A DNA stretch of 64,000 nucleotides. Source: a virus. The DNA is taken from positions 1 to 64,000 of the IMG/VR virus record IMGVR_UViG_3300029448_000010; one strand, written 5' to 3'. The position numbers and the translations under genes were made by a program. The notes under the pieces were generated by a model, which was not told where the DNA came from, ran no database searches, and saw only the letters and a program-made list of their open reading frames with translations. Positions 46,843-63,544 of this stretch are shown piece after piece; position 1 is the first letter of the stretch; each line of letters starts with the position of its first letter.

Positions 46843-49711
46843 ATGACATGGAAAAATAGTATTAAAAAAGCCAAAAAGGTTTATGTTGTCGTAAAGTTCG
46901 GAGCATATCATAATCCTAAAGACCTTAAATTGTCTGTCTTTGATGATAGGAAAAAGGCAGAAGAGGCTTTACAAAAAGTAACTTCATACAACGAAGATGG
47001 CAGTATAGATGACGGTAGTGGAAAAAGAACGAAAGGCGAGGCATATATTTACCAAACTTACATGAATGAAGATTTCCCAAATACACCTAGATTACTAACG
47101 CCACTCAAAGATAGACAACAGAAAAAGAAGTGATTAATATGACACGCTGTAATTATTTAGAAGGCTGGTTCGATAAGGAATCTGCTAAATTAGACAAAGT
47201 TGAGAATGATTATGGTACTTGTTTAGTTACAGGTCAAAAGAAAAAGGCTACTACTTTAACTAAGGCTCAAGCATGGGCCAAAGTATTCAGGAGGAATAAG
47301 GTATGAGTTGGCAAGATATAGTGAAAGTATCAATTACAGAGGGTCTATTCAATCAGACAAAAGAAAAGATGAGAGACATAAAAGCACAGTTAAGTGGTTT
47401 AGAGAATAGTTATACGAAAACGGCTTTAGACGAGATAGTTCATATCTATGAACAAGCAAAGAAGGCTCATAGGGAAAATAATAAAAAACTACTTGGATTT
47501 CATCTTAGAACAATGACAATAATAGGAAAAGACATATCAAACTACTTTGATGCACAAGATATAGTAAAAGGTTCAGATAATGAACGAAATATAAGTGCAG
47601 ATTCTTTTAGAGAATACGGAAAGGCTTCAAAGGAAAACCCTACATCTGCAAAAGACGATATTTCAACCCGTTCTCCTGAATTACAAAAAGGCGCACGGAC
47701 ATATCCACAAGGTATTGAAAAGGTAGGCAAGTTATTTTCTAAAGGAAAAATCGACATGAAGAGATATACAGAACTTCGTAAAGAATTACAGGAAATATTC
47801 GGAGTGGGGGAATAGTATGAGTTGGAAAAATATACTAAAGAGAGAGAAAACACCCCTTGTCCCTGATGAAGCGATGTTTGATATTCCTACTGGGAATTTA
47901 AAAAGTCCTCCTGAAAGCAGGTATTTTGAAAATGCAAAGGTGACTTATATGGAATCTGGCCAATTTGTGTTTGATGAAATAGATAAAAGATATATAATGA
48001 CTGATAAATACAAAAGAGGTGAAGTAGCGGCAGATAGAGCAACTATGGGAGAAATGGATGGAAGACAAGTTGTTTCTTTTGCCCCCCGCAGAGTGGCGAA
48101 AGATGCCTTTATTAAAGTCTTTGACCCCTACATGGACTTTATGCAATCTTGGCATAATCTAGAAACTTTACAAGAAGCAAATAAAGAATGGGAATATCTA
48201 ACCCATAGAGTTATGCTCACTGTTCACACCGCATTAAACAATTTATTCCCAACAGTGGAAGACGCATACAAGTCTAGAAAGTTAAATGGTTTCTTACATT
48301 GGAAAGGTGAATACTATCAGAATCTAATGAATGAGAAACTACCTGATACTATGGAACAAATTAAACCAGCGAAGAAACAACCATCGAAGAAAGAGCCTCC
48401 AAAGAAAAGAGACTATATGGCTGAAAGAAGAGAAAAAATAAAGCGTCTTAGGAGGGATAGGAAATGAGTTGGAAAAATATACTCAAAGACTCAAAAGCCG
48501 CTAATGAAGCACTAGAGATGGATTTCTTTATGAATAATTTAGAAAAGGCTCTAAAGTATGAAACTCAAGATATTCGTTTTGCTGACTTTGGCACTAAACA
48601 AAAGGTGCTAGATATTGCTAAAAAAGATAATTATAACCTACGGAATGCGGATGGAGATTATCACTTTATGACTCTTTCCGTTTCTGATTCTGAAGTAACC
48701 TTTGATGTTAAAAGAGGATTCATAGGGATGATGGTAAGGTTTAGTTTTGAAGGCGATAAAGTCAAATTTAAAATAATTGGGTGATTAAGATGACATGGGA
48801 AGATATAATTAAAGTTGGGAGCCAAACATTCGACTATCGAGAAAGAGCCGGACAACAAATGGTTGCGGATAGAAAAAAACAAGAGTTGGAAAAACTACGA
48901 CTTAAAACACAAAAAGAAATTAGCCAAATCTTGCGAGAAGTGCAGGAAAAACAAAAGTTGCTTGCTCAAAAGAAGAAGATACTAGAGGCAAAAGAAGTAG
49001 CAGATTTAGATGCTTTAGGTATCTCTTTAGGCAATTAGGTGATGCTATGTCTTGGAAAGATTCTCTAAAGAAGTATAGAACCAATGTAAGTGGTTCAGGT
49101 ATGATTCCTTTAGACCATGTACTAAAAGACCATAGTGAATTAGGTTTGAAAATTAGAGGCCTTATGGGTGCAGTAGGTAGTCTTAGGAATAATATGCCAC
49201 GAAGCGTTAGTAAAGTGATGGTTAAGTTAGATAAAATAAAAGAAGAAATGTATAGAGTCGAACAACTTATTACTGCTATGAATGAGTCTTATTCTGCTAT
49301 GGATAAAGAAGATTGGCAAAAGACAATGGAGGACTTAGAATGAGTTGGTTTGATATTATTAAAATGATGACTCCTAGAGAGTTTTTACAGGCACTAAATC
49401 TAGATGGTGACATTAAAGGAAGTGTGGGTAAAGCAGGTACTAATATGTCATTACATCACGATGCTGGTTTTGTTAAAGTCAATCAATCTAAAAAAGGCCC
49501 GTACATCGTAAATGTTGATGGTGAAAGATTTACCGATTATAGTCTAAGTAAGATACTGCCTCAAGTTAAAGACCAAGTTAAAAAGTCCCAAACTTCTTAT
49601 ACAGATGTCTTGCTAAGAGAAGCAGGGGCGGTTAGTACGGCCACCCCTAGTATTATTAATGTAAGATATTCTAAGAAAAAGGAGGATGAGAAGGATGCCG
49701 TCACAGAGTAA
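46843..49711 (+). CDS. Run of small/medium proteins with the MSWxxILK-type leader (46843, 47303, 47817, 48464, 48790, 49047, 49340) plus a 55-aa ORF at 47139-47306
   Basis: Shared 8-aa N-terminus, unrelated bodies, SD motifs and overlaps. Confidence 0.75.
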
Positions 49712-50822
49712 GAAGAAGAATATTCAAAGAGATGAGTACGGCAATACTATTGATTCTCCTACCTTAGATTTTATTATCGAATTTAAGAAATGGGAAAAGC
49801 AACTTAGAGGTATTAGTGCTAAACGGATTCAATCAGAAGGCCGAGAGAATAAAGACGGCTCTAGAAAAGCCGTTCCTAAAACCTTGTATGGTCAATTAAG
49901 ACAACATGTTACTGCGGCATTCAGAAGACCTAATTCTGTAAATGCTGGAGATAAAGGCGCATATAAGTTATTAGATAAAATTACTAAAGCAATTAAGACT
50001 AGGACTGTTTTTACTGAAGAAGACCTAGATGACCTTAAAGAGTTTCAAGATGACTTGACTGTATTTGAACAGGCAGAAGGAAAGTTAAATCCTAGAAATA
50101 CTCTATTTACTACTCCTAAAAGTTTCGATGAAGTGGATGGAGAAGTAGTTCCTAGTGAAGCCACTAAGCCACTATACGGTCATTATGTGGATAAATTTTT
50201 TGTGAGAAAATATCCTAAAAAGGGATATAAAGTAAAAACTAAATGGTCTAATTCTAGTATGAATACTGCTAATCCACCATTGGCTCAAGCCTTATTTGCA
50301 GGGCCAAAAAGCCCAAGTGACTTAGGTATTGAAAAAGGATTAATTCAAATCGTCGATGATGCAATAGAGGAATTAGAAAGTGAAAAGATTAATCTATACA
50401 CTATTGGAATTAAGAGAGCAGGGGCATTAGCAAGACTACCTTCTGTTAAGAAGTGGGTTAATTCTGCTATTAGAAATAAAAGATTCTATCCTGAAAACAG
50501 TGGTAAGATTAATTTGAGGGCTATTGGTAATGCTCTATTGGCCCAGACTTTTCCTATTAAAAGTGAAGCCGAGCAAAAGGTGTTAATGATAGCCGCTACT
50601 AATAAGCAGGTAAATTATGCTCAAGATATATTAAGATTCAAAGTAGGTCAAATTACACCTGCGGTCATGACTACTTTAATTAGAGAAGTTATTTCAAGAG
50701 GTTCGCAAGAACACATTAAAGTTAGAAATGGATATTATTTACAGTTAAGAGGATTGTCCGACCCTCCTTCTGAAACACATAAAGACATTAAAAAGAGTTG
50801 GATAGAAATGCTATGGGCGTGA
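49686..50822 (+). CDS. Hypothetical 378-aa head-module protein
   Basis: Long ORF; ends KKSWIEMLWA (leader-like motif at the C-terminus). Confidence 0.65.
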   Translation: MRRMPSQSKKKNIQRDEYGNTIDSPTLDFIIEFKKWEKQLRGISAKRIQSEGRENKDGSRKAVPKTLYGQLRQHVTAAFRRPNSVNAGDKGAYKLLDKITKAIKTRTVFTEEDLDDLKEFQDDLTVFEQAEGKLNPRNTLFTTPKSFDEVDGEVVPSEATKPLYGHYVDKFFVRKYPKKGYKVKTKWSNSSMNTANPPLAQALFAGPKSPSDLGIEKGLIQIVDDAIEELESEKINLYTIGIKRAGALARLPSVKKWVNSAIRNKRFYPENSGKINLRAIGNALLAQTFPIKSEAEQKVLMIAATNKQVNYAQDILRFKVGQITPAVMTTLIREVISRGSQEHIKVRNGYYLQLRGLSDPPSETHKDIKKSWIEMLWA

Positions 50823-50826
50823 TTAA

Positions 50827-51437
50827 ATGAATTGGGAAAATATATTGAAGAAAGATATTAATTGGTTAGATGCGTTTCATAAATTCGGATTTAATGATGG
50901 AGAAAACTATACCGGACAAACAGAAGCAATTGCTGGCTTTTTAGGAACGAAAGGATATTTGTCACATGTAACTAAATCAGGAGGTCATAATACTTTCATT
51001 AGAGCAATATATAAAACAACAATTGCCGAAGGATATGATAAAGAAAAGGTATATCCTCTTGATAGTGAAGAGTCCCGTAGTGGGGCAAGGGAAGATTTTG
51101 CACCTGAATTATTGAAATTATTAGATGACAGATATGGCAAATCAACAAAATCCGAAGGCATTACGAGTTGATTAAAATGAGTTGGGAAAATATTGTAAAA
51201 CGCAGTAATTCTGATGAACTCGATAAGGTATTAGACATGTATTCAGGACTAAAATTTATTGTAAATGATACTTATGCTGATATGATACCTTTTGTTTCTT
51301 TATTACAAAATGGTTCTTTAGAAGAGGCAAATGATGAATGGAAAAAGATGCAGGGTAACATTAAGGATTTAGAAGGTTCACTGAGAGGCATGCAAGAAGT
51401 TAATGATTTTATTACTAAATTGTTAGGTGATGCTTAA
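50827..51437 (+). CDS. Two MSW-leader proteins (50827-51171, 51177-51437)
   Basis: MNWENILKK, MSWENIVKR. Confidence 0.7.
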
Positions 51438-52093
51438 TGATTACTCGCAAACGATGTGCCGTCTGTCAGCATGATGATAGAGAAGAATTAGAAGCCGCTT
51501 TAGAAGGCGCATTTATTTCCTGTGATGATTTAGATAATAGAGAAGGCTGGAGAAGCGGTACTTCTGCAAAGCATCTTAGAAATCACATGGGGGATTATAC
51601 TAACAGTAGTAATCCTAAATGTAAATTGTGTGTTGACCCAATGAGGAAACATTACGAGGAAGCATTATCCGATGGTAATATCACTGCTGAAGGCGTTTCT
51701 CTAGCACTTGATGTTACTAAGGAACAGGTACAGCGACACATGAAGCACCACTTAGCACCTTTGGTTCAACAATCTGCCGCCAACATTATAGCGAAAAAGG
51801 AAGTAAATGAAATCGAACTACTAAGTACTAACATACAAAGGTTAGATGATAAGTTAGATGAGTTATTCAGGAATACAGAATTAGAACCTAGAGAGATAGA
51901 TAGCCTAACTAAACTTGCTAAAGAAGTTAGAGAGAGTCTAAAGTATCTTATGGAGTTTAAGGGCAAACTTATTCACAAGAGACAAGACACAATTATTGTC
52001 GCACAAATGCAAGTTGTTCAAGAAGTCCTTGCACAAAACAATCCTGAGATATGGCTTGAGATTAAAAAGAAAATGCAGGAGAAATTACAATGA
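51437..52093 (+). CDS. terS: Probable terminase small subunit
   Basis: Two CxxC...HxxxH HTH-like repeats followed by coiled-coil helices; upstream of TerL. Confidence 0.5.
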   Translation: MITRKRCAVCQHDDREELEAALEGAFISCDDLDNREGWRSGTSAKHLRNHMGDYTNSSNPKCKLCVDPMRKHYEEALSDGNITAEGVSLALDVTKEQVQRHMKHHLAPLVQQSAANIIAKKEVNEIELLSTNIQRLDDKLDELFRNTELEPREIDSLTKLAKEVRESLKYLMEFKGKLIHKRQDTIIVAQMQVVQEVLAQNNPEIWLEIKKKMQEKLQ

Positions 52094-53800
52094 GTTGGTT
52101 TGATATATTGAAACAAGAATCGGTAAAAGCATTGGTTGAAGATGCTTTAGATTTGCATAGTAGGGGTCGTGATTTTTACAAAGAAACTTATACAAAAGAA
52201 GATATTAAGCAAATGATGGACTTTTTCAAAAAGGAAAATAAAAGAGATAGGCTAGACCAATTTGATACGGACTATAATAGTAAAGCAATAAGACTACTAG
52301 AAAAAGCATTGGAGGAATTACAATGAGTTGGAAAGATATAATTAAAGCACCATTTGATGCACCTAGAAGAAGTAGGGCATTCAGGGCTAGAAGTAAGGCT
52401 GAAGAAGAAATAAGTGCAACAAAACCTAAAGAGGATTTATCCACTGACATTTCTGCTTTTGCTTCTAAGATTATTGACCCTCAGATGGAAAGATACGGTA
52501 GGGCTTTTGTGGATATAACAAAAAATAAAGATTGGAAAGAATTTTCTGAATTATTGGATAAATACAAAGGTAAGGATAGACTAGCGAATGAACTCGGTAA
52601 ATTATACAATACCAAAGTGTTCATTACCCATAGGCCGTCTAAAGGCGACCCTAGAGATGAAGACTATGTTATTGATATTGGAGCAAACCACGAAGAAAGA
52701 GGTGCTTAATAATGAGTTGGAAAGAAACACTAAAAGCCCACTGCGGCACAGAGGAAAAATTAGAAGACGATGACCCATTTGAAAAACTAGTCGGTAATCA
52801 AGATGAAATAGATGCTGACGGTGATGGTAAAATAACAGGAAATGATTTTAAGATTCTAGGAAGAAAGTCTAAACTAAAGAAAGCAAGAGACATGAAGCAA
52901 GTCCCTCTATCTAATGGCAAGACCTATCCACAGAATATTAGAATATTTGAAGCCACTTTGAAAAAAGAAGGTGGTGCGGCTGGTATTAAGAATTTAGTTG
53001 ATGCAAGTAAACTATCAAAAAAAGAAGTGAAGGCTGTTCTTGATATAATGAAGAACATAAGGATTCACAAGTATGGAGACATTATTCTAATGGATGGATT
53101 ACCTAAAGGAAAAGGGAGAGGGTTCACTGCATGAGTTGGGAAAATATAATTAAAAGAGGCCGAAGTTATGGTCGTAAAAAAAGAGCCGCCGAACATAACG
53201 CACCTACTCTTAAACAAATAGAAGAATTAGAGAAAGACCTTGAAAAGCATAAGGTTGAATTATCAACTTTAGGAACAAGTCAGCAAATTGAAAGATATGG
53301 TTTTGAAACACAGATGAACAAGGTTCGCAAAAAAGAAAAAGTCATTCGTTCATTAGAAAGCAAAATAAAAGAATTAAAGGATAAACTGAAGTGATAACAT
53401 GGATTGGCATATTATTCTAAAGAAACTTGTGTGTCCTACGGCAACACAAGACCTGAAACTCAACACTAAAAATAGAGATAGGGCAATAAAAGAAAAACAT
53501 ATTCAATATGGCCCTCTCAATCTAAACGATGAAAAGTATTGGGAAGAATATGCTAAGAAGTGGAATACTACTGCTGATGTGGCTAAGGAATCTAATTGTA
53601 GTAATTGTGTTGCATTTGACATATCTCCAAGAATGGATGACTGTATGCCACTAAATACAGACGAAGATGGCCGACTAGGTTATTGTTGGATGCACGATTT
53701 CAAATGCCATTCTGTGAGAACTTGTTATACTTGGGCTAAAGGAGGCCCAATTGATGACGATAAGGCTTCTAAAGAAAATCAAATGAGAGGCCGCAGGTGA
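52090..53800 (+). CDS. Five MSW-leader proteins (52090, 52323, 52712 with EF-hand-like loop, 53131, 53399 Cys-rich)
   Basis: Shared leader; DADGDGKIT loop; CSNC...GYC...FKC...TC. Confidence 0.7.
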
Positions 53801-53804
53801 TTGA

Positions 53805-55913
53805 ATGAAAAAATTTCCGGATAGTCTAATTGAATTATTTGCTATGTTGGCTGACGATAAGCGAGCCAAAGTATTGTTTAACATTAAATCTAGCAAGGTT
53901 GGTAAAAAAAGCATTACTAACCCTGTATTCGATGGTATGGTAAATCACTTCAGGGCAAATGAAATTAGTCAAGATTCAGTTAGACAATATCTTAGGGATA
54001 ATGATATTCTTGCAACTCTAATACCTAATTCTTTAGGTAAAGCCGAAAGACTACAATTACGAAGTAATATGGCTAACAATTTAGAAACTCTTATTCAGAA
54101 TTTAGGTAAAAGACAATCCCGTGACCAAACTCAACGCTTACTTGATGCTATCTTAGCAGATGATAATAAATCTAAAGCAGGTATTGTGGCTTTGAATGTG
54201 TTTATTAAGGATGCTAGCCCAAGAAAGATAAGGGAGATAAAAGATGATTACTTAACTCCCGAAATAAGACTAAACTTAATAGGAATTGTTGAAAAATACG
54301 CCTCCAAAAAGAAAAATTTTACTCCAAGTGACTTCGATAAAGACACAATGATTAACTTAAATAACAATTTGATAACAATTCGCTCCACAGCAACAGAAAT
54401 TGACGCAAAAGAACTCAATGACGAAGCCAAAAAGAACGGTTGGACTAGAGAATCGTCAGGTAATAGCGTTATTTTAAGAAAAATATTCAAAATGGGCGTT
54501 AAAACCACAGAAGAGTCACTAAGAAAGTTAATTCAAGATGATTTACCTTCAGTTGAATCTGCTAATGATGGACAAAACACTCAAATTACTCAAAAACCAT
54601 CAGATTTACGCAGATTATTGTATGGAAAAGAAGCAACTTTCAAAACAATAGGTGGTTTTTCTCAAATTGCGGCTAAAATGCAAGTTATACTAGAAGACTT
54701 CGGTACTGTTGATAAAGAAATCATAGAAAGTTGGTTTAAATTAGTGACAGAAGGTGTAGGTACGGGATTAAGTTCAGATGCGGAGTTTATGAAGGCAATT
54801 ACTAACTTTAAAGTCAATGGTTCTTCTATGTATGGTAAGTTTTTAAGCGGAAAAACGCAATCAAAGAACCATAAGGCATCTTTTTATGTTAGAGAGTTAT
54901 TGGAACAGCCTCTTAGTCAAAACTTATTCGATGAAGTTATGAAAAACATCAAAGGTAGTCTTAGAGTGTCTAGGCAGAATTGGATAGCATGGAAAAAGGC
55001 TTCTTTAGATACTAAAAAAGAAAAAGATGCTTTTGAGATTGATGCTAGAAAGCCATTAACTGATGAATCTAGACAGGCTTTTGAAGAAACTTATCTTACA
55101 GCGACTAGAAATTCAATACAAGCGATTATGCTAGAATATCTCAAAGATGAGGAAGGATTAGAAATAAGCGATAGTGACTATGTTATATTAAATGAAAATC
55201 AGAAAAAGGAATCTCAAATAGCGTTAATAGAAGATTCAGAAATTATGGAAAAGATTTCTGCACTCCGTACTGACATATTAGACGATAAAGATGCTTTAAT
55301 ATTTTACAAGGATTGGTTGAAAGAAAACGACTATGCTGAAGATTTAACCTTATTTAGAGAAAGAAGGATGGTATCTCAATTACCTACGAAAGAAACTGAG
55401 GAAATAGATTTTACTTATTTAGATACCGAGTCCGAATTGACTAGGGTTATATATTCTGTAATACATAATGCGCCAACCAAAGTCACAGAAGATAAAGACG
55501 GCGAGAAAGTCGAGAGGCCGATAGATGGTATTTTCAGAAAATATTTAGGCAACAGGTCAAAGTTAGCAAAGTATGTAAAATCTAATAAGAAGGACATAAA
55601 AGAAGGTCTAGTAGTATTCTATCATATCTGTAATACTATGGGGTCTTCTTTGGTGACAGAAGCACAAGCCATAGACAAGCATACATCAAAAGGCTTATCT
55701 GCGGAAAACGAGTCGCTGCTAGCAGCAGTAAAGAAATTTGCCGCTAAAATGGAAAGAAGTCTTAAATTATTCAAAAATAGGTTTAAAGAAGAATTAGGCA
55801 CAAGACTGAAAGATATAGCAGATAGCCCAAAAAAGTACCCTGCTGTTTATGATAAACAACCTTACATAACTAAACTAATTAAGTATTCACTGCTAAAGAG
55901 GCGACCACAATGA
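53805..55913 (+). CDS. Large hypothetical helical protein (702 aa), possibly virion-internal
   Basis: Long ORF in the head module; no motif recognised. Confidence 0.7.
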   Translation: MKKFPDSLIELFAMLADDKRAKVLFNIKSSKVGKKSITNPVFDGMVNHFRANEISQDSVRQYLRDNDILATLIPNSLGKAERLQLRSNMANNLETLIQNLGKRQSRDQTQRLLDAILADDNKSKAGIVALNVFIKDASPRKIREIKDDYLTPEIRLNLIGIVEKYASKKKNFTPSDFDKDTMINLNNNLITIRSTATEIDAKELNDEAKKNGWTRESSGNSVILRKIFKMGVKTTEESLRKLIQDDLPSVESANDGQNTQITQKPSDLRRLLYGKEATFKTIGGFSQIAAKMQVILEDFGTVDKEIIESWFKLVTEGVGTGLSSDAEFMKAITNFKVNGSSMYGKFLSGKTQSKNHKASFYVRELLEQPLSQNLFDEVMKNIKGSLRVSRQNWIAWKKASLDTKKEKDAFEIDARKPLTDESRQAFEETYLTATRNSIQAIMLEYLKDEEGLEISDSDYVILNENQKKESQIALIEDSEIMEKISALRTDILDDKDALIFYKDWLKENDYAEDLTLFRERRMVSQLPTKETEEIDFTYLDTESELTRVIYSVIHNAPTKVTEDKDGEKVERPIDGIFRKYLGNRSKLAKYVKSNKKDIKEGLVVFYHICNTMGSSLVTEAQAIDKHTSKGLSAENESLLAAVKKFAAKMERSLKLFKNRFKEELGTRLKDIADSPKKYPAVYDKQPYITKLIKYSLLKRRPQ

Positions 55914-58567
55914 CTAAACAATTAAATAAGTATTTGCCTAGTCAGGCTAAAGAGATTCTAAATGCTTCTGAAAAGGAATTTAGAAGAGTTGTTGGTGGAA
56001 GTAGCCAAAGTGATAAAAAGAAAGCAATTACTTCAATAGAAGATTCTATTAGAGAGAACATAATGAAGTATAGAAAGGTTCTTAGAACTAATATAGGAAC
56101 TAAAACTAGACAGGCTACTAGTAAGGAAGTTAGAGAAGTTATTTTACAAATCATACAAGAAGTAAATGAGCATTTAATGACTTTAAAAACTGAGAAAAAA
56201 ATGCCTTCTAGTAAAGATATAGCAGTACAAGAACATATAATAGATTCTATTAGAGATATATTAGAAGATACTAAGCATGTAAGATATAGCGGTGCTAAGT
56301 TAAAGGTTGAGGATATTATGTCTAATTCCTTTTCATCTGACCAAATAACTACTACTAAAAAGATTAATGTTTCTGAAATAGAATCAGACATTAAAATCCT
56401 TTTTAATACAAAAGAATACCCTATTCCTAATCATATTAAAAAGAATTTAAGGGCTTTTACTGAAAGGCTTGAAGAATTGTCTAAAGCAAAGACTACTAGA
56501 TTCAAAATACATAGACATGAATCCCATTTGAAAAAGATTTTTGGTAGCGATACTCAAAGGGCTAAAGATGCTAAAGATAGAAAGGCCACATATAAGTTTT
56601 GGAAAGGTATTGCTGGTCATGAAGATGATTTAGAAACTGAATTAGATAAGTTAGTTGTATTATTAAAAAAAGGTAATCCAAGTGATGCTAAAGCCGATAA
56701 AGATGTAGCGGCATTTCTAAAGTTTATGTCTGATGAACCTGATTTGAAGTATGTTTATCCATTCCCTAAAAAGACATTAGGCTTTGCTGATTTACATGCA
56801 AGGTCGTATCAATTCCTACTTAATTTCCTTAAACTGTTTAATTATGATGTTAACTTTAGAGGAAGTAAAAGTAGTTATGCGGGTAAAGGAGATTCCGACG
56901 CACCTAGCGATGATGACGATACTTCGGATTCAGAAGTAACAGGCGGTACAGGTCGAGAAGAAGTAGTATCAGACGAACCTCAAGACTGGGATGATAGCAA
57001 GGAATTAGATGTTCAAACAGAACAGAATATAGCCGCAGAAGCCCAAAGAGCAGATAGAGCGAATCAATTGACCGTAGGTGAAGATGTAGTAAGAGATGTA
57101 TTCAGTAATCCTGAAGTTTCAGAATTGATAAAAGATATGGAGAAAGAAGATTACGACCCATTAGGTATATTAGTAGTAAAAGATGACTTAAAGAGTTTAA
57201 TGCCTTTATATGGAGAAATAGACGAAATTAAAGACTATTTAGAAGAAAAGAGAGCCTTGCTAGATATAGATGAAGACGATGAAGAGGCTATTTTTAAGAC
57301 ATTTATGGATGATTTAGAGAGAATACACTCTTTAGCAGACAGTCTAAAAGAGTTCCATTTACCTATATTTGCGGCGGAAAACCCTGTAATTAGAGAAGAA
57401 TATCCAGAATTGAAGGCTAAAGCAGGGTCAACAGGTGCAGACATTGATAGATTTTTAGAATTGTTTGCTAATTTAATCCAAGATGAAAAAGCGACTATGG
57501 CTAATGTAACTGCTCTTGATTTAAGGGGCGCAAGCACCGGAGGGAAAAAGGAAGAAAAAGCCCCACCAAGATATTTCAAATATGTTAAGGGAGTTGCCTC
57601 AAGAAAAGGTTCTCCTAGACAGTCCTTTAAAGCAGCAAGTTCAGCAAACTCTAAGATTAATGCGGCTATTAATAGAGTAGTTAAAGAAATGGCACATGTA
57701 TTTATTACTCCACAAATGTCTCATTTAGATGCGGGAATATCTCTCCCCTTTAAGAATAACTTTGCTCTAAGATTAATTTCCTCAACTAAAAAATTAGATG
57801 AAAAGTTTAAGATTTATCAAGCCATAAATCAAAAGTTTATGAGTACAGGAGAAGCATTCATAGATGAAGAAGCCGTGGTTAAATTAAGGTCATTTACTAA
57901 TATGCTGGCTAAAGGTGATGCAGTTCAGAATTTTGAGAACATTAAATCGGCAGGTGCTAAGTTTGCAGAGGCATTGTATGACATCGCTGAATATACTGAA
58001 GATAAAACAAAGACTAAATTAAATAACAACATAAAGGAAAGCATACAAAAAGATGTGGCGGCAATACTAGGTTCTATTAGAAGCATTTCTAATGTTAGAA
58101 GAGATGAATATTTCATGAATAATACATGGGGTAACAAGATAGGAATACTAGACGAGTATAAGAAAAGTAAGAAGGATGGAATAGAAGATATTTCAGTCCT
58201 TAGAGTAATTCTAGATTTGTTGGAAACCAAGCACGGTGAAACTGCAATACCCGACAAGAACGAAAGACAGAAGTTGCTAGATGATTTGAGAGAGATTAAG
58301 AAAAGTGAAGTTAGTGAAAAAATACTAAGTGTTCACGATTCTATTCGGCTACTAAAACAGAAGCCGGTATTTTATGGTAAAAAGAAAATCAATAACTTTG
58401 ACCATATAGGTGACATGATAACTAAGATGGAAAGGGAATACAATTTAGATATTAGCGCAAGTGAGATAACAGGTGTTGTTAATGAATTGGATTCTTTTGA
58501 TAGTATTAGTAAATCTTACGGTATTAGTACAGAACATGTTTATGTGATTAAAGCCAACTTTAGGTGA
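55910..58567 (+). CDS. Large hypothetical helical protein (885 aa), possibly virion-internal
   Basis: Long ORF with acidic disordered linker and HTH-like C-terminus. Confidence 0.7.
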   Translation: MTKQLNKYLPSQAKEILNASEKEFRRVVGGSSQSDKKKAITSIEDSIRENIMKYRKVLRTNIGTKTRQATSKEVREVILQIIQEVNEHLMTLKTEKKMPSSKDIAVQEHIIDSIRDILEDTKHVRYSGAKLKVEDIMSNSFSSDQITTTKKINVSEIESDIKILFNTKEYPIPNHIKKNLRAFTERLEELSKAKTTRFKIHRHESHLKKIFGSDTQRAKDAKDRKATYKFWKGIAGHEDDLETELDKLVVLLKKGNPSDAKADKDVAAFLKFMSDEPDLKYVYPFPKKTLGFADLHARSYQFLLNFLKLFNYDVNFRGSKSSYAGKGDSDAPSDDDDTSDSEVTGGTGREEVVSDEPQDWDDSKELDVQTEQNIAAEAQRADRANQLTVGEDVVRDVFSNPEVSELIKDMEKEDYDPLGILVVKDDLKSLMPLYGEIDEIKDYLEEKRALLDIDEDDEEAIFKTFMDDLERIHSLADSLKEFHLPIFAAENPVIREEYPELKAKAGSTGADIDRFLELFANLIQDEKATMANVTALDLRGASTGGKKEEKAPPRYFKYVKGVASRKGSPRQSFKAASSANSKINAAINRVVKEMAHVFITPQMSHLDAGISLPFKNNFALRLISSTKKLDEKFKIYQAINQKFMSTGEAFIDEEAVVKLRSFTNMLAKGDAVQNFENIKSAGAKFAEALYDIAEYTEDKTKTKLNNNIKESIQKDVAAILGSIRSISNVRRDEYFMNNTWGNKIGILDEYKKSKKDGIEDISVLRVILDLLETKHGETAIPDKNERQKLLDDLREIKKSEVSEKILSVHDSIRLLKQKPVFYGKKKINNFDHIGDMITKMEREYNLDISASEITGVVNELDSFDSISKSYGISTEHVYVIKANFR

Positions 58568-58571
58568 TAGC

Positions 58572-59464
58572 ATGGGTTGGTTTGAGATATTAAAAAGAAC
58601 AGAAATTGTTCCCGAAGAATCTCTTGAGCATTTAGAAGAGTTTGTTTTAGCAGAAGAGAAAGGCTATCCTTCTGTATTGCACCCTCTAAAAATAGTCGCT
58701 GAGTTTGATGATGATACAAACGATTTGAAGGCTTATACTTCTTTTAGAGATTTTGGTAAATTCTTTTTTGTAGGTAATAGTTATTCTTTTGTTAGGGGCG
58801 GCGGTTTTTACAAGAAAGTTCTAAACTTTAGAGACAAGTTTTTAGGTTCTTCTAAACCTAAGATTGCTTTACTTAATGTTAAAGAGTCCACTCAAATAGA
58901 CAGAATGACTTCTTTAGTTGAAGGTAGGGGAGGCATTAAGATAGAAGAATATTCACAAGTGGATGATGTTATGGATGAATCTATGTATAACGAATTTAAG
59001 AAATTACCTATGTTTAGATACCCGCCATTAAAAGAAGGTGAAGAAGAATGAATTGGTTTGATGTATTAAAATTAAAAGACGATGATGGAAACTTGTTAAT
59101 TGTTGAAGATGTTGACGAGTTTGTAAGATACCTTAGAGAATCTTTAAGGGCAGTGGCCGCACCTTTCTATGGTACTATTACACAACCAAAGAGCGAAGGA
59201 AATCCTAGAAAATCGAACATAGTTGTAAAGGAAACATGGGTCGATGATAATACCTTAAAGGTAGTAGCCAGCGTAAGAAATCCTAATACGACACAAAGAG
59301 AATACTTTGAAATTATTCTCCGAGAAAATGAAGAAGGAGACTTTTACTTTGATAAGGTTGAAGGGGCGGGAGTGTTCCTATTCCGTAACACTAATGTCAG
59401 TAATTCGGGTAAATTAATACAAGAAATACAGCAAGCGGTTAAGAGATATTTACAAAGTAGTTGA
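58572..59464 (+). CDS. Two MSW-leader proteins (58572-59051, possible GNAT-like fold; 59048-59464)
   Basis: MGWFEILKR, MNWFDVLK; VRGGGFYKKVL resembles the GNAT motif A. Confidence 0.65.
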
Positions 59465-59468
59465 TTGC

Positions 59469-60899
59469 ATGGAAATAGAGCCTTTTAATTTTGAACATAA
59501 TATGGATATGGAGTTATCTAAAAACTCCTTTCCGTATTTTTTCCAGAATGTATTAGGTTTTGATTTTCCATCTTATATTCAAGAATGGCATGAGTTAATG
59601 AATGAAACTCAAAGGACTGTTATCATTTGTAGTCGTGACCACGGTAAGTCTGTATTTATGCACAGTTGGGTTGTATGGAAATTAATCTTTGAAGAACCCC
59701 CATACCAAATGCTATACATATCTTCTAACCAAAAGCAGACTCTTGTTCACATGAGAGACATTGATAAAATGTTTACTCATCCTATGCTTAAAAAATTCAA
59801 ACCTGCTAGGGGTTGGGCTATTGGTAACATTACATTAACTAATGGTAATCAAATCTTAGAGCGTTCCGTAGGTTCACAGATTCGTGGATTGCACCCTCAA
59901 GAAATAGTAATTGATGACCCTTTGAAAGAGTTTAGTATGACAGGTATTCAAAAGGTTACAGATTGGTTTTATGGTGACATGATACCTACACTGCATCACA
60001 CTGCATCATTGAGAGTTATTGGTACTCCATTTAGTTACACAGATATTTACCAACAGTTAGCAGAAAATGATGCTTATACGGTCAGAACATATCCATGTCT
60101 CAATTCTTTGAATGAACCCTTATGGCCGGATAGATGGAATTACGATGCGTTGATGGCTCGTAAAGCAGAAGTAGGTTCATTGATGTTTACAAGAGAATAC
60201 ATGTGTGTACCTATTTCAACGGGTACTTCTTTATTCAATCCCGATTATTTAGAGAGGGCCAAAGATAAGGATTATGTTTTGAAACCACAAAGGCGTGAAG
60301 GCTTCAAGTATTATGTAGGAGTTGACCCTGCTATCTCAACCGATGGAGATTACAATGTAATTACTGTATTAGAAGTTGATGAACATGACAATAAAACAGT
60401 AGTGTTTGTTGACCGTTCTAAGAATGTTGAGTTTAGAGAGAACATAGAAAAGGTTCGTCTAATAGGAAAGATGTTTCATCCCGAAGTAGTATTGTTTGAG
60501 ACAAATACATTCGCTAAATCATTTACACAAGAATTAAGGAATGTATCTGATTTGAATGTTCATGACTTTAACACTACTAGAAAAAGAAAGGAAGAGATTA
60601 TTCTAAGTTTGCAGATGAATTTTGAGAATGAAAAGATTAGATTACCTTATGGTAATGAAGAGAGTCGAAGAGTATCAATGATTCTTTTAGAAGAATTGTC
60701 AATGTTTGCTATTACAGACAAAGGAAAGTTTGAGGGAATTGGAGCGCATGACGATATGGTTATGAGTTTAGCCCTCGCTAATGCAGCCACCCATACTATG
60801 AGTGAAACATTCATACTGTTAGATGACTTGGGCTTATTTGAGCCGGTTAAGACTAACCGCTATCAACGCACTGGTGGCTTTATAGGAATGAATTTTTGA
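59469..60899 (+). CDS. terL: Terminase large subunit
   Basis: SRDHGKS Walker A, IRGLH..VIDD Walker B, GVDPA and HDDMVMSLALA nuclease motifs. Confidence 0.93.
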   Translation: MEIEPFNFEHNMDMELSKNSFPYFFQNVLGFDFPSYIQEWHELMNETQRTVIICSRDHGKSVFMHSWVVWKLIFEEPPYQMLYISSNQKQTLVHMRDIDKMFTHPMLKKFKPARGWAIGNITLTNGNQILERSVGSQIRGLHPQEIVIDDPLKEFSMTGIQKVTDWFYGDMIPTLHHTASLRVIGTPFSYTDIYQQLAENDAYTVRTYPCLNSLNEPLWPDRWNYDALMARKAEVGSLMFTREYMCVPISTGTSLFNPDYLERAKDKDYVLKPQRREGFKYYVGVDPAISTDGDYNVITVLEVDEHDNKTVVFVDRSKNVEFRENIEKVRLIGKMFHPEVVLFETNTFAKSFTQELRNVSDLNVHDFNTTRKRKEEIILSLQMNFENEKIRLPYGNEESRRVSMILLEELSMFAITDKGKFEGIGAHDDMVMSLALANAATHTMSETFILLDDLGLFEPVKTNRYQRTGGFIGMNF

Positions 60900-60908
60900 G
60901 GTGGTTAT

Positions 60909-62264
60909 GTGACAACGGCAGAAGAATACGACGAAGCCTCTGAAAGAATGAAGCGTTTAGCGGAGTTAGAGAGAGAAAAGCAAGAAGAATTATCAGAAGT
61001 TCAAAATGATTTAAGCACTAAATTAACAGGAGTTTCTGATTATGTCATGTCTGATTATGAAGCAGTAAATACTTTATCCAAGAATCTAAATATTAATGCT
61101 ACTGATGCTAGGAAACAACTATCCACATTTCCTTCTGAATATATTGTTGATGGTCAAAATATCCCAGACCTAGTAAGAAAAATGCGTAAAGCAAGAAGGA
61201 AACTAAAAGGAGATTCTAGAATAAGAATGTCTGAAACTATTGATACAGTTATTGATGGATATGCAGACCACATAAACAAATGTATTGATTCTATTTATTG
61301 GATTACTCCGTATAAGATTCCTCTATTGAAAATGAGATTCAACGAAAAAGATTTATCTAAATTAAATAAGATTTCAGAAGTTAAACAAAGAAGAAACATA
61401 GTTGATTCTCTTTGTAAATTATGGGAAATAGATTTAAACAAAACAGATATGGCTTTTGGTTCTAACTATGCTAAATTGGAAAAAGAATCTAGATTAGCAA
61501 AAAAGCAATTTAGAGAAGAGTTAAAGAAAATTAGCGACCAATCTTTAATTAAATCTAAAAAGGAAAAGTCTTTAAATTTTATTTTAAAATCAATATGCGA
61601 AAATCCGGGAATTGGTATTGGAACTATTCATGACCAAATGCCAAACAATTTACATAAAGCCAATTCAAGTAATACTATTTCTAAAATGATTAAGAAATTA
61701 GAAGTAGGTAGTATAAATGGTGCTTATTATAAATTACCTAATGAATTAAAAAAGAATGTTTGGGCTTATACTGCCGCATTTATTGATTCCGACGGCTATA
61801 TTACTATGGATAGAAACCATAATCCAAGAGTAGGGTTGGTTGCCACTGGAGAAAGAGGTAAGGTGTTTATGAATGAAATGCACAAATCTATTGGGTTTGG
61901 TAAGTTGCATTTAGACCAAAAATCCCCTCAAGATACACGGCCTGTTAATCGCTTAAACTTTTATTCACAAGGAGATGTAGTCAATCTATTAACTAAATGC
62001 TTACCACATTTCAGACTAAAGAAGGGTAATGCTGAATTATTATTAGAATTAATTCGCATGAAAAAGTCACACAAGAAGGCTGATTGGTATAAGTCTAGGT
62101 GTGATGAGATATTCAAGTTAATGAAATGGGAGAACCATAAAGACCATGTTGGTTTTGATTTTGCTAAAGAAGGAATATATGTTGATGATATTTCTAAGTT
62201 ACAAGGTAACTGTAAGATGTCTGCTATGGATGAGTTAGAAGGTATTGGAGGTATGATAGTATGA
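60909..62264 (+). CDS. Coiled-coil/HTH protein fused to C-terminal LAGLIDADG endonuclease domain
   Basis: YTAAFIDSDGYI motif; LTKCLPHFRLKK..AE. Confidence 0.75.
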   Translation: MTTAEEYDEASERMKRLAELEREKQEELSEVQNDLSTKLTGVSDYVMSDYEAVNTLSKNLNINATDARKQLSTFPSEYIVDGQNIPDLVRKMRKARRKLKGDSRIRMSETIDTVIDGYADHINKCIDSIYWITPYKIPLLKMRFNEKDLSKLNKISEVKQRRNIVDSLCKLWEIDLNKTDMAFGSNYAKLEKESRLAKKQFREELKKISDQSLIKSKKEKSLNFILKSICENPGIGIGTIHDQMPNNLHKANSSNTISKMIKKLEVGSINGAYYKLPNELKKNVWAYTAAFIDSDGYITMDRNHNPRVGLVATGERGKVFMNEMHKSIGFGKLHLDQKSPQDTRPVNRLNFYSQGDVVNLLTKCLPHFRLKKGNAELLLELIRMKKSHKKADWYKSRCDEIFKLMKWENHKDHVGFDFAKEGIYVDDISKLQGNCKMSAMDELEGIGGMIV

Positions 62265-63544
62265 GTTGGGAAGAAGTATTGAAAAAGAAATCCACTGTCA
62301 ATTCAGCAGGTAATTACACTAAACCTAAACTTCGTAAAAAAATCTTTAACCGAATTAAAGCAGGTAATAAGGGCGGTGCATCCGGTCAATGGTCTGCTAG
62401 AAAAGCACAGATGGTTGCCGCCGCCTACAAAAAAGCAGGTGGTGGTTATCGTGATTAATTGGCGTGATGTTCTCAAAGCCAAAGCAGAAACTCAACAGGC
62501 TTTAACCACTTGGACTGACGAAGAATGGGGAAGTCAAAAACAACACAAAGCGAAAGCAAAGGGTAAAACCCCCCCTTCTAAAGCAAAAGGAAGATATATG
62601 CCTAAAAGTAAATTTCAAGGAACAGGACAAGGAAGATTAGACTATCAAGACAAAAAGAAAGAAGAAGGAACTGAACAAGGAAAACAACATGTTCCAACAG
62701 GAAAGAAGTTCAAGCAGGTGTGATTATGTGGGAAGATATTCTGAAAAAGAAACCTAAAAGTGCTAGGTCAAGAGCCTTAGAGAGAGCCAAAAAGAAAGGG
62801 CTTAAAGGATTAAATAGACCACAGCGATTAAAAGACAGTTCAGGAAAATCACATCATGTAATGGCCTTTGAAGGTAAAAAAGCCAAGTACATTAAATTCG
62901 GTCAAGCAGGTGTAAAAACAAATCAAACTGCCGGACAACGAAAAGCATTCAAATCTAGACACGCAAAGAACATAAAGCGTGGTAAAATGTCTGCCGCTTA
63001 TTGGGCTGATAAGGTAAAGTGGAGTCCAAAGAAAACCAAAGAAAAGAAGAATAAGAAATGGCGGAAGGGTAGTTGAATGTGGAAAGACATATTAAAGGCT
63101 GATTTTGTGGTAAAAACCAATTGGCCTGAAGCGGATTTTTGGCTACAAAAAAGAGGTTCTGAACAGAATGTCGGAAAGCCTATGAGAAAGTTTAGCAAGG
63201 TTCAAGGTCAATATAACATAGGAATTAAAGTACCGAAAGGAATGAATAAAGAATATGTATATGCACAATTAGCGGCACTATTTAGAAAAGGATATTGGCA
63301 AACACATTCTTACGGTACTATTAATTTACAGCATATTAGAGTCGATGATGTAAAGAAGATACTACAATCTTTTGAAAATAAAGAAGACTACACAGATGCT
63401 ACATCAGATAAGATAGAAAAAATATATGATAAGTGGCTAAATGATTCTAAGTTGATAAGTCAATTACTTATGTCAAGTAACTCTCTAATTAGAGAAGGTC
63501 GGGAAATTAAAAGGTTCTTAGGGAAAATGGAGGACATGAGATGA
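62261..63544 (+). CDS. Four basic MSW-leader proteins (62261-62458, 62451-62723, 62726-63076, 63077-63544)
   Basis: Leaders MSWEEVLK, (M)INWRDVLK, MWEDILK, MWKDILK; bodies such as GQWSARKAQ and KMSAAYWA resemble widespread small marine-phage proteins. Confidence 0.7.

What the first reader, a model, noticed from the sequence alone, without database searches (positions are those of the whole stretch)
46843..63544. About 20 unrelated proteins share an 8-residue N-terminal leader M-[STNDG]-W-x-x-[ILVST]-[ILV]-K: a candidate capsid-loading or processing tag
Seen at 46843 MTWKNSIK, 47303 MSWQDIVK, 47817 MSWKNILK, 48464 MSWKNILK, 48790 MTWEDIIK, 49047 MSWKDSLK, 49340 MSWFDIIK, 50827 MNWENILK, 51177 MSWENIVK, 52090 MSWFDILK, 52323 MSWKDIIK, 52712 MSWKETLK, 53131 MSWENIIK, 53399 MDWHIILK, 58572 MGWFEILK, 59048 MNWFDVLK, 62261 MSWEEVLK, 62451 MINWRDVLK, 62726 MWEDILK, 63077 MWKDILK. 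Similarity ends right after the Lys, and the bodies are diverse (coiled coils, EF-hand-like, Cys-rich, GNAT-like, basic). Codons vary (AGT/TCT/ACA/AAT/GAT/GGT at position 2), implying protein-level selection. The full motif is confined to the head/packaging arm and is absent from TerL, the TerS candidate and portal. Precedent: the T4 internal-protein capsid targeting sequence removed by the prohead protease. Inference: a modular 'address label' that loads arbitrary cargo into the head for injection, possibly cleaved after K.
Basis: partly seen in the sequence, partly recalled or inferred. Interest (0 to 1): 0.88.

Follow-up and report, generated by a model that had tools for sequence, protein, structure and literature searches.

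The report
Shared head-loading tag on magrovirus proteins
About twenty unrelated small proteins of this ocean archaeal virus (a magrovirus) begin with the same eight amino acids, most likely a removable address label that loads a fast-changing set of proteins into the virus head, though neither loading nor cutting has been shown.

Summary
In the window, 19 ORFs start M-(x)-W-x-x-x-[ILVM]-K, against 0.07 expected by chance. A 20th uses a GTG start, and a 21st lies just past the window at 65337. All sit on the + strand in the late (TerL, portal, protease, capsid) arm. None of about 80 replication-arm genes has the motif.

The contig is a group-B-like magrovirus. In 80 related loci, 463 of 1579 co-oriented genes carry the leader and 0 of 110 opposite-strand genes do. 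The leader heads about 229 sequence families. Half of the tagged genes are replaced in a genome whose TerL is 96% identical.

Selection acts mainly on the protein: Leu at position 7 uses all six codons.

Two new links to head assembly:
- The leader ends in hydrophobic-L-K, the tripeptide that is invariant near the capsid protein's N-terminus in three clades. The prohead protease is family S78, whose studied members cut after Lys.
- M-x-W-x-D-I-x-K recurs at the C-terminal tails of the prohead protease-scaffold and a 78-aa scaffold-like protein.

Best reading (about 0.55): a T4-CTS-like tag for capsid targeting and cleavage. It is analogous to T4's, not homologous. Nothing shows packaging, cutting or injection.

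The scan has already noted sister tags on other DNA, including another magrovirus clade (e1-5999106).

The parts
46843..47133 (+). leader-tagged gene, 96 aa, MTWKNSIK (weakest match)
47303..47815 (+). leader-tagged gene, 170 aa, MSWQDIVK
   Evidence: no Pfam or PHROG hit
47817..48467 (+). leader-tagged gene, 216 aa, MSWKNILK; no homologue in close relative G006
48464..48784 (+). leader-tagged gene, 106 aa, MSWKNILK; no homologue in G006
48790..49038 (+). leader-tagged gene, 82 aa, MTWEDIIK; conserved in G006 (88%)
49047..49343 (+). leader-tagged gene, 98 aa, MSWKDSLK
49340..49711 (+). leader-tagged gene, 123 aa, MSWFDIIK
49686..50822 (+). 378-aa late gene without leader; conserved in relatives
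50827..51171 (+). leader-tagged gene, 114 aa, MNWENILK
51177..51437 (+). leader-tagged gene, 86 aa, MSWENIVK
51437..52093 (+). 218-aa core gene without leader (Zn-ribbon plus coiled coil, TerS-like); conserved C-terminal PEIW-L-[DE]-I-K-K-K-M; present in all three clades
52090..52326 (+). leader-tagged gene, 78 aa, MSWFDILK (best PSSM match)
52323..52709 (+). leader-tagged gene, 128 aa, MSWKDIIK
52712..53134 (+). leader-tagged gene, 140 aa, MSWKETLK; conserved in G006 and G007; sub-threshold EF-hand hit
53131..53394 (+). leader-tagged gene, 87 aa, basic, MSWENIIK
53399..53800 (+). leader-tagged gene, 133 aa, 7 Cys, MDWHIILK; the most conserved cargo (70-76% identity in G006 and G007)
53805..55913 (+). 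702-aa late gene without leader; the same position in relatives holds 550-811-aa leader-tagged proteins
55910..58567 (+). 885-aa conserved late gene without leader
58572..59051 (+). leader-tagged gene, 159 aa, MGWFEILK; no homologue in G006
59048..59464 (+). leader-tagged gene, 138 aa, MNWFDVLK; no homologue in G006
59469..60899 (+). large terminase (no leader)
   Evidence: phrog_38, E = 8.8e-57
62261..62458 (+). leader-tagged gene, 65 aa, pI 10.6, MSWEEVLK; conserved in G006 and G007
62451..62723 (+). leader-tagged gene, 90 aa, GTG start, (M)INWRDVLK
62726..63076 (+). leader-tagged gene, 116 aa, pI 11.2, MWEDILK (no residue between M and W)
63077..63544 (+). leader-tagged gene, 155 aa, MWKDILK. 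The body is DUF6943-like and has leaderless homologues elsewhere. In the AF2 model the leader residues 1-8 have pLDDT below 50 and lie outside the fold.
63695..64000 (+). start of the portal gene (runs to 65335; no leader)
   Evidence: phrog_18178, E = 3.7e-66

Best explanation
The 8-residue leader M-[STN]-W-x-[DEN]-[IV]-[LI]-K is a portable protein tag that works during head assembly. Proposed mechanism:
1. The Trp-centred amphipathic turn (M1/W3/I6/L7) docks the tagged protein to the inside of the assembling procapsid. The receptor is either the capsid protein's conserved N-terminal propeptide or the scaffold. The prohead protease-scaffold and a 78-aa scaffold-like protein carry a similar peptide (M-[DE]-W-S-D-I-H-K) at their C-terminal tails.
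2. The S78 prohead protease then cuts after the invariant Lys, in a hydrophobic-L-K context. The capsid protein's own N-terminal region has the same context (G-N-x-L-L-K | Q-A-G). This frees the cargo inside the shell.
3. The cargo stays with the DNA and probably enters the host with it. It is a rapidly exchanged set of small, mostly basic proteins with no known relatives, plus some 550-811-aa proteins in related viruses.

Shown here: the tag, its restriction to the late arm, its modularity and turnover, selection at the protein level, the shared hydrophobic-L-K in the capsid protein, and the tail similarity. Inferred, not shown: docking, cleavage, packaging and injection.
For: - Frequency: 19 strict copies against 0.07 expected.
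- Placement: all tagged genes are in the TerL-portal-protease-capsid arm and none among about 80 replication-arm genes. In 80 related loci the count is 463/1579 co-oriented genes against 0/110 opposite-strand genes. The complete relative G006 has 19, all co-oriented with the head genes.
- Modularity: the bodies are unrelated. 229 of 458 families in related loci have tagged members. The DUF6943-like body of 63077 occurs without the leader in P0176 and P0177, and with a different leader variant in P0174.
- Turnover: 11 of 21 tagged genes have no homologue in G006, whose TerL is 96% identical, while every leaderless late gene is conserved.
- Protein-level selection: Leu at position 7 uses six codons, and Lys8 codon usage equals that of the bodies.
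- Protease: family S78 (PF04586, 37.3 bits). The studied S78 enzymes, HK97 gp4 and T5 pb11, cut after Lys (PMC13517437). The HK97 gp5 sequence has K103|S104 (the cleavage position is from my own knowledge).
- Capsid protein: L27 and K28 are invariant, and L26 nearly so, in an alignment of 35 capsid proteins down to 43% identity. [ILVM][LIM]K is present at that place in 86 of 87 non-redundant N-termini from three clades.
- A second magrovirus clade uses another leader, AFDxAW-x-[VLI]-L-K, which also ends in hydrophobic-L-K. Its capsid protein has S-E-L-L-K|A-D.
- Tails: the only internal hits that share the M-x-W-x-D-I-x-K pattern in the genome's proteome are the C-terminal tails of the protease-scaffold and the 78-aa protein. 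Both tails are conserved in all relatives.
- [ML]-x-W-x-[DEN]-[IVLM] lies in the last 28 residues of 19 of 150 representative S78 homologues, against 0.1% of random windows.
- The leader is flexible and outside the fold in the AF2 model of 63077.
- Precedent: the T4 capsid targeting sequence is a 10-19-residue N-terminal propeptide that targets proteins to the core and is removed by gp21 (PMC9026906; PMC7411985).
Against: - There are no virion proteomics, no structure and no experiment for any magrovirus. Packaging, cleavage and injection are all inference.
- The leader-tail similarity covers only M, W, D/E and I/V (plus K in this clade), and it was found after the fact.
- The type-2 leader of the other clade does not resemble that clade's tail, NMSWEEVHQLAG.
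- The HK97 gp4 tail has no W motif.
- Hydrophobic-L-K is a short motif in Lys- and Leu-rich proteomes. Only its conserved position in the capsid protein gives it weight.
- Ser2 is AGT in 88% of leaders against 42% at codon 2 of untagged genes. So some constraint at the DNA level, or shared descent of the leader DNA, also exists.
- Twenty or more cargo species, plus 550-811-aa tagged proteins in relatives, are a lot to fit in one head.
- The AF2 model of the capsid protein was too poor (pLDDT 51) to place the N-terminal site.
Confidence: 0.55

Rival explanations
1. The tag docks proteins to something other than the capsid interior. Candidates are the outside of the virion (decoration or adhesin-like plug-ins), the portal or terminase, or a non-virion late complex such as an assembly factory. 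Whether it is cleaved is left open.
For: - The tag is restricted to the late arm.
- The TerS-like 218-aa protein also ends in a conserved W-x-[DE]-I-K helix. That could point to a terminase or portal partner.
- An earlier scan note (e1-158929) read a comparable tag in a giant phage as an external docking plug.
Against: - The similar peptide sits on the prohead protease-scaffold and a scaffold-like protein. These act inside the procapsid before DNA packaging.
- The leader ends in the same hydrophobic-L-K as the capsid protein's N-terminal region, which fits processing by an internal protease.
- The cargo is small, often very basic (pI 9-11) and has no known relatives. It does not look like binding modules.
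Confidence: 0.15
2. The leader is a recognition site for an enzyme, not a sorting tag. One version is a handle whose invariant Lys8 is modified, for instance by the virus's candidate ubiquitin-like system (Ubl, E1, JAB). Another is an N-terminal degradation signal that times protein turnover.
For: - The Lys is invariant.
- A ThiF/E1 gene is present in the three MSW-type genomes tested (G000, G006, G007) and absent from the two type-2-leader genomes (G003, G004).
- Earlier scan notes (e1-127136, e1-126111) describe a phage N-terminal tag that turned out to be linked to a radical-SAM enzyme.
Against: - The co-occurrence rests on two independent clades only.
- The type-2 leader also has the invariant L-K without a viral E1.
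- E1, JAB and Ubl lie in the replication arm on the other strand.
- This reading explains neither the capsid protein's L-L-K nor the protease and scaffold tails.
Confidence: 0.07
3. The conserved 24 nt act at the DNA or RNA level, as a translation-initiation or regulatory element or as a recombination junction for swapping gene cassettes. On this reading the peptide is a by-product.
For: - Ser2 is AGT in 88% of leaders.
- Synonymous sites in the leader lean towards A/T.
- DNA homology blocks between G000 and G006 start or stop within about 25 nt of leader start codons at most cassette borders.
Against: - Leu7 uses six codons, Ile/Val/Leu interchange, and Lys8 codon usage matches the bodies.
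- The M-to-W spacing varies by whole codons: 0, 1 or 2 residues in 46, 362 and 55 cases.
- The same peptide occurs at C-termini far from any start codon, with different codons.
- A/T enrichment at 5' ends is also seen in untagged genes.
- Homology blocks ending inside the leader are expected simply because every leader is alike.
Confidence: 0.06
4. The tagged genes are one old paralogous family. Their bodies have diverged beyond recognition, and only the N-terminus is conserved for a structural reason within each protein.
For: The proteins are small and fast-evolving, sit in tandem, and have no database relatives. AGT dominance at Ser2 fits common descent of the leader DNA.
Against: - Bodies range from 56 to 811 aa with very different composition.
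- One body has leaderless homologues in unrelated contexts.
- Orthologues swap leader variants (P0174 against the window gene).
- The leader is outside the predicted fold.
Confidence: 0.07

Closest known systems
Capsid targeting sequence (CTS) of phage T4 internal proteins IPI, IPII, IPIII and Alt (Mullaney & Black 1996; reviewed in PMC9026906 and PMC7411985)
   Same: Both are short N-terminal propeptides shared by otherwise unrelated, often basic, rapidly exchanged proteins encoded with the head genes. In both, the tag combines an address with the prohead protease's cleavage motif. In both, the cargo set varies between close relatives.
   Different: There is no sequence similarity to MKTYQEFIAE. 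The protease is S78 (HK97 type, P1 = Lys), not T4 gp21 (cuts after Glu). The host is an archaeon. The scale is about 20 tagged genes per genome and about 229 families in relatives, against 4 in T4. Function here is inferred only.
C-terminal capsid-targeting or capsid-protein-binding tails of prohead proteases and scaffolds (HK97 gp4, Duda et al. 2013, title cited in PMC9024508 and PMC7411985, content from my own knowledge; SPN3US gp245 C-terminus, PMC7411985; herpesvirus scaffold C-terminus, my own knowledge)
   Same: This virus's protease-scaffold and 78-aa protein share a conserved C-terminal tail, M-[DE]-W-S-D-I-H-K-M-V. Its first eight residues fit the leader pattern M-x-W-x-D-I-x-K.
   Different: The leader is N-terminal and ends at Lys. 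The tails continue as a longer helix. The HK97 gp4 tail itself has no W motif. The similarity rests on 4-5 residues.
Encapsulin targeting peptides (cargo-loading peptides) (PMC11664910)
   Same: Both are short terminal peptides that load diverse cargo into an HK97-fold shell. In family 1 encapsulins the binding site is formed by the shell protein's N-terminal helix plus the P-domain. Here the capsid protein has a strongly conserved N-terminal helix (T7, D10, E12, Y16, G17 invariant).
   Different: This is a viral capsid with DNA, portal and protease. The tag is probably removed. Binding was not tested and there is no sequence similarity.
Type-2 magrovirus leader AFDxAW-x-h-L-K (earlier scan finding e1-5999106; seen again here in G003 and G004)
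   Same: It occurs in the same group of marine archaeal viruses, in the same genomic role (8-9 tagged genes per genome), with the same Trp-centred helix ending in hydrophobic-L-K. The capsid protein has the same L-L-K site.
   Different: It has a different N-terminal half (A-F-D-x-A before the W). The Lys lies 4 residues after the Trp instead of 5. Those genomes have no viral ThiF/E1.

Membership tests
T4-type capsid targeting sequence system | Short N-terminal peptide shared by otherwise unrelated proteins | tested here: met
T4-type capsid targeting sequence system | Tagged genes belong to the late/head module | tested here: met
   Placement and strand only. Expression timing was not tested.
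T4-type capsid targeting sequence system | Sequence homology to the T4 CTS (MKTYQEFIAE) and processing by a gp21-type protease at L/I-x-E | tested here: not met
   The leader is M-S-W-x-D-I-L-K. The protease matches Peptidase_S78, PF04586. So this works like a CTS but is not a member of that family.
T4-type capsid targeting sequence system | Tag ends in the cognate prohead protease's cleavage motif | tested here: inconclusive
   The invariant Lys fits the P1 = Lys preference of S78 enzymes (PMC13517437), and the same hydrophobic-L-K is invariant in the capsid protein. No cleavage data exist.
T4-type capsid targeting sequence system | Tagged proteins are present in virions with the tag removed, and are ejected into the host | not testable with these tools
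   Needs virion proteomics or experiments.
Protease/scaffold C-terminal capsid-binding tail | Conserved peptide at the extreme C-terminus of the prohead protease and/or scaffold | tested here: not met
   The tails exist on the protease-scaffold and the 78-aa protein, but the leader itself is N-terminal.
Protease/scaffold C-terminal capsid-binding tail | Shared sequence motif with the tail | tested here: inconclusive
   M-x-W-x-D-I-x-K is shared in this clade. Only M, W, [DE] and [IV] are shared with tails of other clades. The type-2 leader does not match its own clade's tail.
Encapsulin targeting peptide | HK97-fold shell protein | tested here: met
   Capsid protein: phrog_24667, E = 1.6e-25; PF17236, 27.4 bits.
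Encapsulin targeting peptide | Peptide binds the N-helix/P-domain pocket of the shell protein | not testable with these tools
   No multimer prediction is available. The monomer model of the capsid protein was poor.
Encapsulin targeting peptide | Non-viral compartment without genome, portal or terminase | tested here: not met
   TerL, portal and protease are present.
Magrovirus, group B-like | Marine contig with archaeal-type replication genes (PolB, RFC, ATP-dependent ligase), GroEL-type chaperonin and ribonucleotide reductase, plus HK97-type head genes | tested here: met
   Criteria are from PMC5434244. More than 600 related IMG/VR contigs. No formal phylogeny was made.

The most novel reading that the evidence does not exclude
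The leader is a two-part portable code that evolved inside one lineage of archaeal viruses. The first part is an address helix taken from the ancient M-S-W-x-[DE]-[IV] tail of S78 protease-scaffolds, whose internal Met could double as a start codon. The second part is the hydrophobic-L-K cut site that the protease also uses on the capsid propeptide. Any gene that acquires these 24 nt becomes capsid cargo. This gives the viruses a hypervariable arsenal of injected proteins (more than 200 families) against their uncultured Poseidoniales hosts. It would be the first protein-delivery system in archaeal viruses and a mechanistic bridge between phage scaffolding and encapsulin cargo loading.
Probability: 0.3. 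Interest if true: 0.8.

Novelty: new variant of a known kind. Interest (0 to 1): 0.62.

Why it matters
Magroviruses are among the most abundant viruses of surface-ocean archaea, and neither they nor their hosts are cultured. Most of their late genes have no known function.

If the leader marks capsid cargo, about a fifth to a third of those genes would gain a location (inside the head), a processing step and a likely role (delivered with the DNA). Injected proteins could then be predicted from sequence alone across thousands of metagenomic contigs.

It would also extend the T4-style head-loading principle to archaeal viruses and to the HK97/S78 assembly pathway. And it would supply a short natural tag for loading foreign proteins into HK97-type shells.

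Tried and rejected
- Literature: full-text searches for six leader octamers found nothing. The two main magrovirus papers do not mention an N-terminal motif. Two papers I wanted (PMC3709472, PMC3911642) are not held.
- Cargo function: there were no Pfam or PHROG hits above cut-off for the tagged proteins of the window that were scanned (14 of 20; PHROGs on four of them) or for ten large tagged proteins of relatives. The ESM Atlas gave only viral hypotheticals for 53399. The AF2 model of 63077 was moderate (pLDDT 68.6), and Foldseek against PDB gave nothing with E at or below 0.001.
- Capsid protein: the AF2 model built from 35 sequences was poor (pLDDT 51, N-terminal half below 50). It says nothing reliable about the L-L-K site.
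- Covariation of leader and tail across clades: not found. The P0002 clade keeps the same leader with a changed tail (DINALVE). The P0010 clade has another leader and an MSWEEVHQLA tail.
- HK97 gp4: its tail has no W motif. The idea that the leader copies an experimentally proven targeting tail is therefore not supported directly.
- Ubiquitin-like idea: ThiF/E1 co-occurs with the MSW-type leader in 3 of 3 genomes and is absent in 2 of 2 type-2 genomes. That is only two lineages, so I kept it as a low-odds rival.
I used the search for related loci and the genome search instead.
- INPHARED holds no close relative; the best TerL identity is 27-29%.
- Docking the peptide on the capsid protein could not be attempted. 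Only single chains can be folded, and no coordinates are returned.

Full report
**What is there.** The window is the first 64 kb of an 83.9-kb single-contig virus record, estimated 91% complete.

Bases 4.7-46 kb hold about 80 genes on the minus strand. These include family-B DNA polymerase, RFC, ATP-dependent DNA ligase, a Cpn60-type chaperonin, a ribonucleotide-reductase-like protein and a UvrD helicase.

From 46.8 kb onward the plus strand holds the late genes:
- TerL at 59469-60899.
- Portal at 63695-65335.
- An S78 prohead protease fused to a 230-residue acidic coiled-coil scaffold part, at 72876-74099.
- An HK97-type major capsid protein at 74110-75444.

This gene content matches what Philosof et al. 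describe for magroviruses, in particular group B with GroEL and ribonucleotide reductase (PMC5434244). More than 600 IMG/VR contigs encode a capsid protein at least 77% identical. No cultured or GenBank phage is close.

A six-frame scan finds 19 ORFs that begin M-(x)-W-x-x-x-[ILVM]-K. All are on the plus strand between 46843 and 63544. Markov resamples of the window give 0.07 on average.

The copy at 62451 uses a GTG start. A 21st tagged gene lies just outside the window, after the portal gene, at 65337-65765.

Each tagged gene has its own Shine-Dalgarno-like sequence, and no similarity extends upstream or past the Lys. The bodies have no significant pairwise similarity and no Pfam or PHROG family above cut-off in the 14 that were scanned. 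None of the replication-arm genes has the motif, nor do TerL, portal, or the 218-, 378-, 702- and 885-aa late proteins.

**It is a lineage-wide, modular, fast-turning-over tag.** In 80 related loci centred on TerL, 463 of 1579 genes co-oriented with TerL carry the leader, and 0 of 110 on the other strand do. The consensus is M-S-W-[KEQF]-[DEN]-I-L-K. Zero, one or two residues lie between M and W in 46, 362 and 55 cases.

Clustering of 2687 late-strand proteins gives 458 families, of which 229 have tagged members; 125 of those are singletons. Relatives also tag proteins of 550-811 aa.

A complete relative, G006 (TerL 96% identical), has 19 tagged genes. Eleven of the 21 tagged genes of this genome have no homologue in G006, whereas every leaderless late gene is conserved.

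The DUF6943-like body of 63077 occurs in other metagenomic proteins with an unrelated N-terminus (P0176, P0177). One orthologue carries a different leader variant and linker (P0174). In the AF2 model of 63077 the leader has pLDDT below 50 and lies outside the fold.

**Protein level or DNA level.** At position 7, Leu uses all six codons and Ile, Val and Leu interchange. Lys8 uses AAA and AAG in the same ratio as in gene bodies. The M-to-W spacing changes only by whole codons. The same peptide also occurs at C-termini with other codons. This argues for selection on the peptide.

There is a residue of signal at the DNA level. Ser2 is AGT in 88% of leaders, against 27% in bodies and 42% at codon 2 of untagged genes. 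AGT is one step from the AAT, ACT and GGT codons of the other common residues at that position. This fits common descent of the leader DNA or a preference for A after the ATG. It does not explain the invariant Trp and Lys.

**Two links to head assembly.**

*First, the cut site.* The prohead protease is family S78. The two characterised members, HK97 gp4 and T5 pb11, cut after Lys (PMC13517437). The HK97 capsid precursor sequence has K103 before the mature S104 (the cleavage position is from my own knowledge).

The leader ends in [IV]-[LI]-K. The capsid protein has G-N-x-L-L-K followed by Q-A-G at residues 23-31. This lies after a conserved N-terminal helix and a linker of variable length.
- L27 and K28 are invariant, and L26 nearly so, in 35 capsid proteins down to 43% identity.
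- The tripeptide is present at that place in 86 of 87 non-redundant N-termini from three clades.

A more distant magrovirus clade (protease 39%, capsid protein 38% identical) lacks the MSW-type leader. It carries a second type, M-x(1-3)-A-F-[DE]-x-A-W-x-[VLI]-L-K, on 8-9 genes per genome. That leader again ends in hydrophobic-L-K. This is the tag noted earlier by the scan (e1-5999106).

*Second, the tails.* The C-terminal tail of the protease-scaffold (...S-M-D-W-S-D-I-H-K-M-V-N-N-R) and of a 78-aa coiled-coil protein at 69664-69900 (...N-M-E-W-S-D-I-H-K-M-V-E-K) fit the leader pattern M-x-W-x-D-I-x-K.
- They rank first and third among internal hits of a leader PSSM over the whole proteome, and they are the only internal hits with that pattern.
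- They are conserved in all relatives.
- A related tail, [ML]-x-W-x-[DEN]-[IVLM], ends 19 of the 150 best representative S78 homologues, against 0.1% of random windows. The tail motif is therefore older than the leader.

Protease and scaffold tails are the elements that bring these proteins into procapsids in HK97 (Duda et al. 2013, my own knowledge) and probably in SPN3US (PMC7411985).

**Limits of the tail argument.** The similarity covers four or five residues and was found after the fact. The type-2 leader does not resemble its own clade's tail. The P0002 clade keeps the leader while its tail differs (D-I-N-A-L-V-E). The HK97 gp4 tail has no W motif. I therefore treat the tail link as supportive, not decisive, and give more weight to the shared hydrophobic-L-K site.

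**Most likely mechanism.** The leader is a capsid-targeting and processing tag that works like the T4 CTS. The T4 CTS is a 10-19-residue N-terminal propeptide that binds the prohead core and is removed by gp21 (PMC9026906). The magrovirus leader was built independently for an HK97/S78-type assembly line in an archaeal virus.

A Trp-centred amphipathic turn would dock cargo inside the procapsid. The receptor could be the capsid protein's conserved N-terminal helix. Family 1 encapsulins, which also have HK97-fold shells, use their N-helix plus the P-domain to bind targeting peptides (PMC11664910). The protease would then cut after Lys8.

I put this at about 0.55. The rivals, with my odds, are:
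- Docking elsewhere: 0.15.
- Enzyme recognition or a ubiquitin-like handle: 0.07.
- A DNA- or RNA-level signal: 0.06.
- A diverged paralogue family: 0.07.

The remaining probability is unassigned.

**Comparison and novelty.** This works like a T4 CTS but is not a member of that family, because both the sequence and the protease family differ. It is not an encapsulin system. I found no paper that describes it.

The scan has already recorded sister tags on other DNA: e1-5999106 in another magrovirus clade, and e1-5340821, e1-5956725, e1-370441 and e1-5928616 in large phages. The general phenomenon is therefore not new to this project.

New here are the MSW-type variant, its scale, the shared hydrophobic-L-K in the capsid protein across clades, and the resemblance to the protease and scaffold tail. 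I rate it a new variant of a known kind.

Noticed in passing
L001:7298-9826 (genome 70298-72826): An 842-aa protein with an ATP-dependent DNA ligase adenylation domain (PF01068, 96 bits) sits inside the head module, between the 78-aa scaffold-like gene and the protease. It is a second ligase-like gene besides the complete ligase at window 20790-22328. It is conserved at this position in the distant clade too (G003, G004).
   Followed up: partly
window 51437-52093: The leaderless 218-aa Zn-ribbon/coiled-coil protein (TerS-like, core to all three clades) ends in a conserved helix: PEIW-L-[DE]-I-K-K-K-M here, and PE[TS]W-A-R-I-[KR] in the distant clade. This shares W-x-x-I-K with the leaders. Its meaning is unknown.
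   Followed up: partly
L001:3002-6304 (genome 66002-69304): The 1100-aa Lys-rich protein after the portal starts MLWEAVLV. Relatives start MSSWKSIIA, and the distant clade has MW[GRAS]S[AS][LIF]L on a 408-432-aa protein in the same place. This is a degenerate, leader-like N-terminus on a conserved large head-module protein.
   Followed up: partly
L001:6306-6671 (genome 69306-69671): The 121-aa protein starts MTWDYYDNKEEFILK. Members of the same family in the P0002 clade start with a canonical MTWEDILKE. So the leader has decayed, or never formed, in this lineage.
   Followed up: no
window 46000-66000 against G006: DNA homology blocks between this genome and G006 begin or end within about 25 nt of leader start codons at most cassette borders. 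The block 52712-53800 (three tagged genes) lies next to the portal-proximal cluster in G006 instead of upstream of the 702-aa gene. Gene-by-gene cassette exchange is clear. Whether the leader itself serves as a recombination junction cannot be told, because the leaders align with each other anyway.
   Followed up: partly
genome 73356-73379 (protease residues 162-169): The end of the S78 protease domain reads E-A-K-F-D-I-L-K, close to the leader MSWFDILK. N-x-x-A-K-F-[DE]-[IV]-L is conserved at the end of the domain in many distant S78 homologues (for example P0076, P0035, P0144). It is therefore probably structural, but it could double as an autoprocessing site here. T-I-L-K|A-Q-E also lies about 26 residues before the protease C-terminus, and A-I-L-K|A at residues 9-13 of the 78-aa protein.
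   Followed up: no
window 28657-28968 (minus strand); G006, G007, G003, G004: A ThiF/E1-like gene is present in the three MSW-leader genomes tested and absent from the two complete type-2-leader genomes.
   Followed up: partly
window 60909-62264: The 451-aa protein between TerL and the tagged genes 62261-63544 has a weak HNH-endonuclease-like region (phrog_5046, E = 1.3e-5, residues 286-403). It is conserved in all clades.
   Followed up: no
L044, L089 and L136 (IMG/VR contig of 184,733 bases): One IMG/VR contig holds two different TerL genes (91% and 83% identical to the query) about 90 kb apart. It is probably two magrovirus genomes joined in assembly.
   Followed up: no
window 46843-63544, tagged proteins: 18 of the 20 tagged proteins contain no cysteine at all. 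One (53399) has seven and is the best conserved of them.
   Followed up: no
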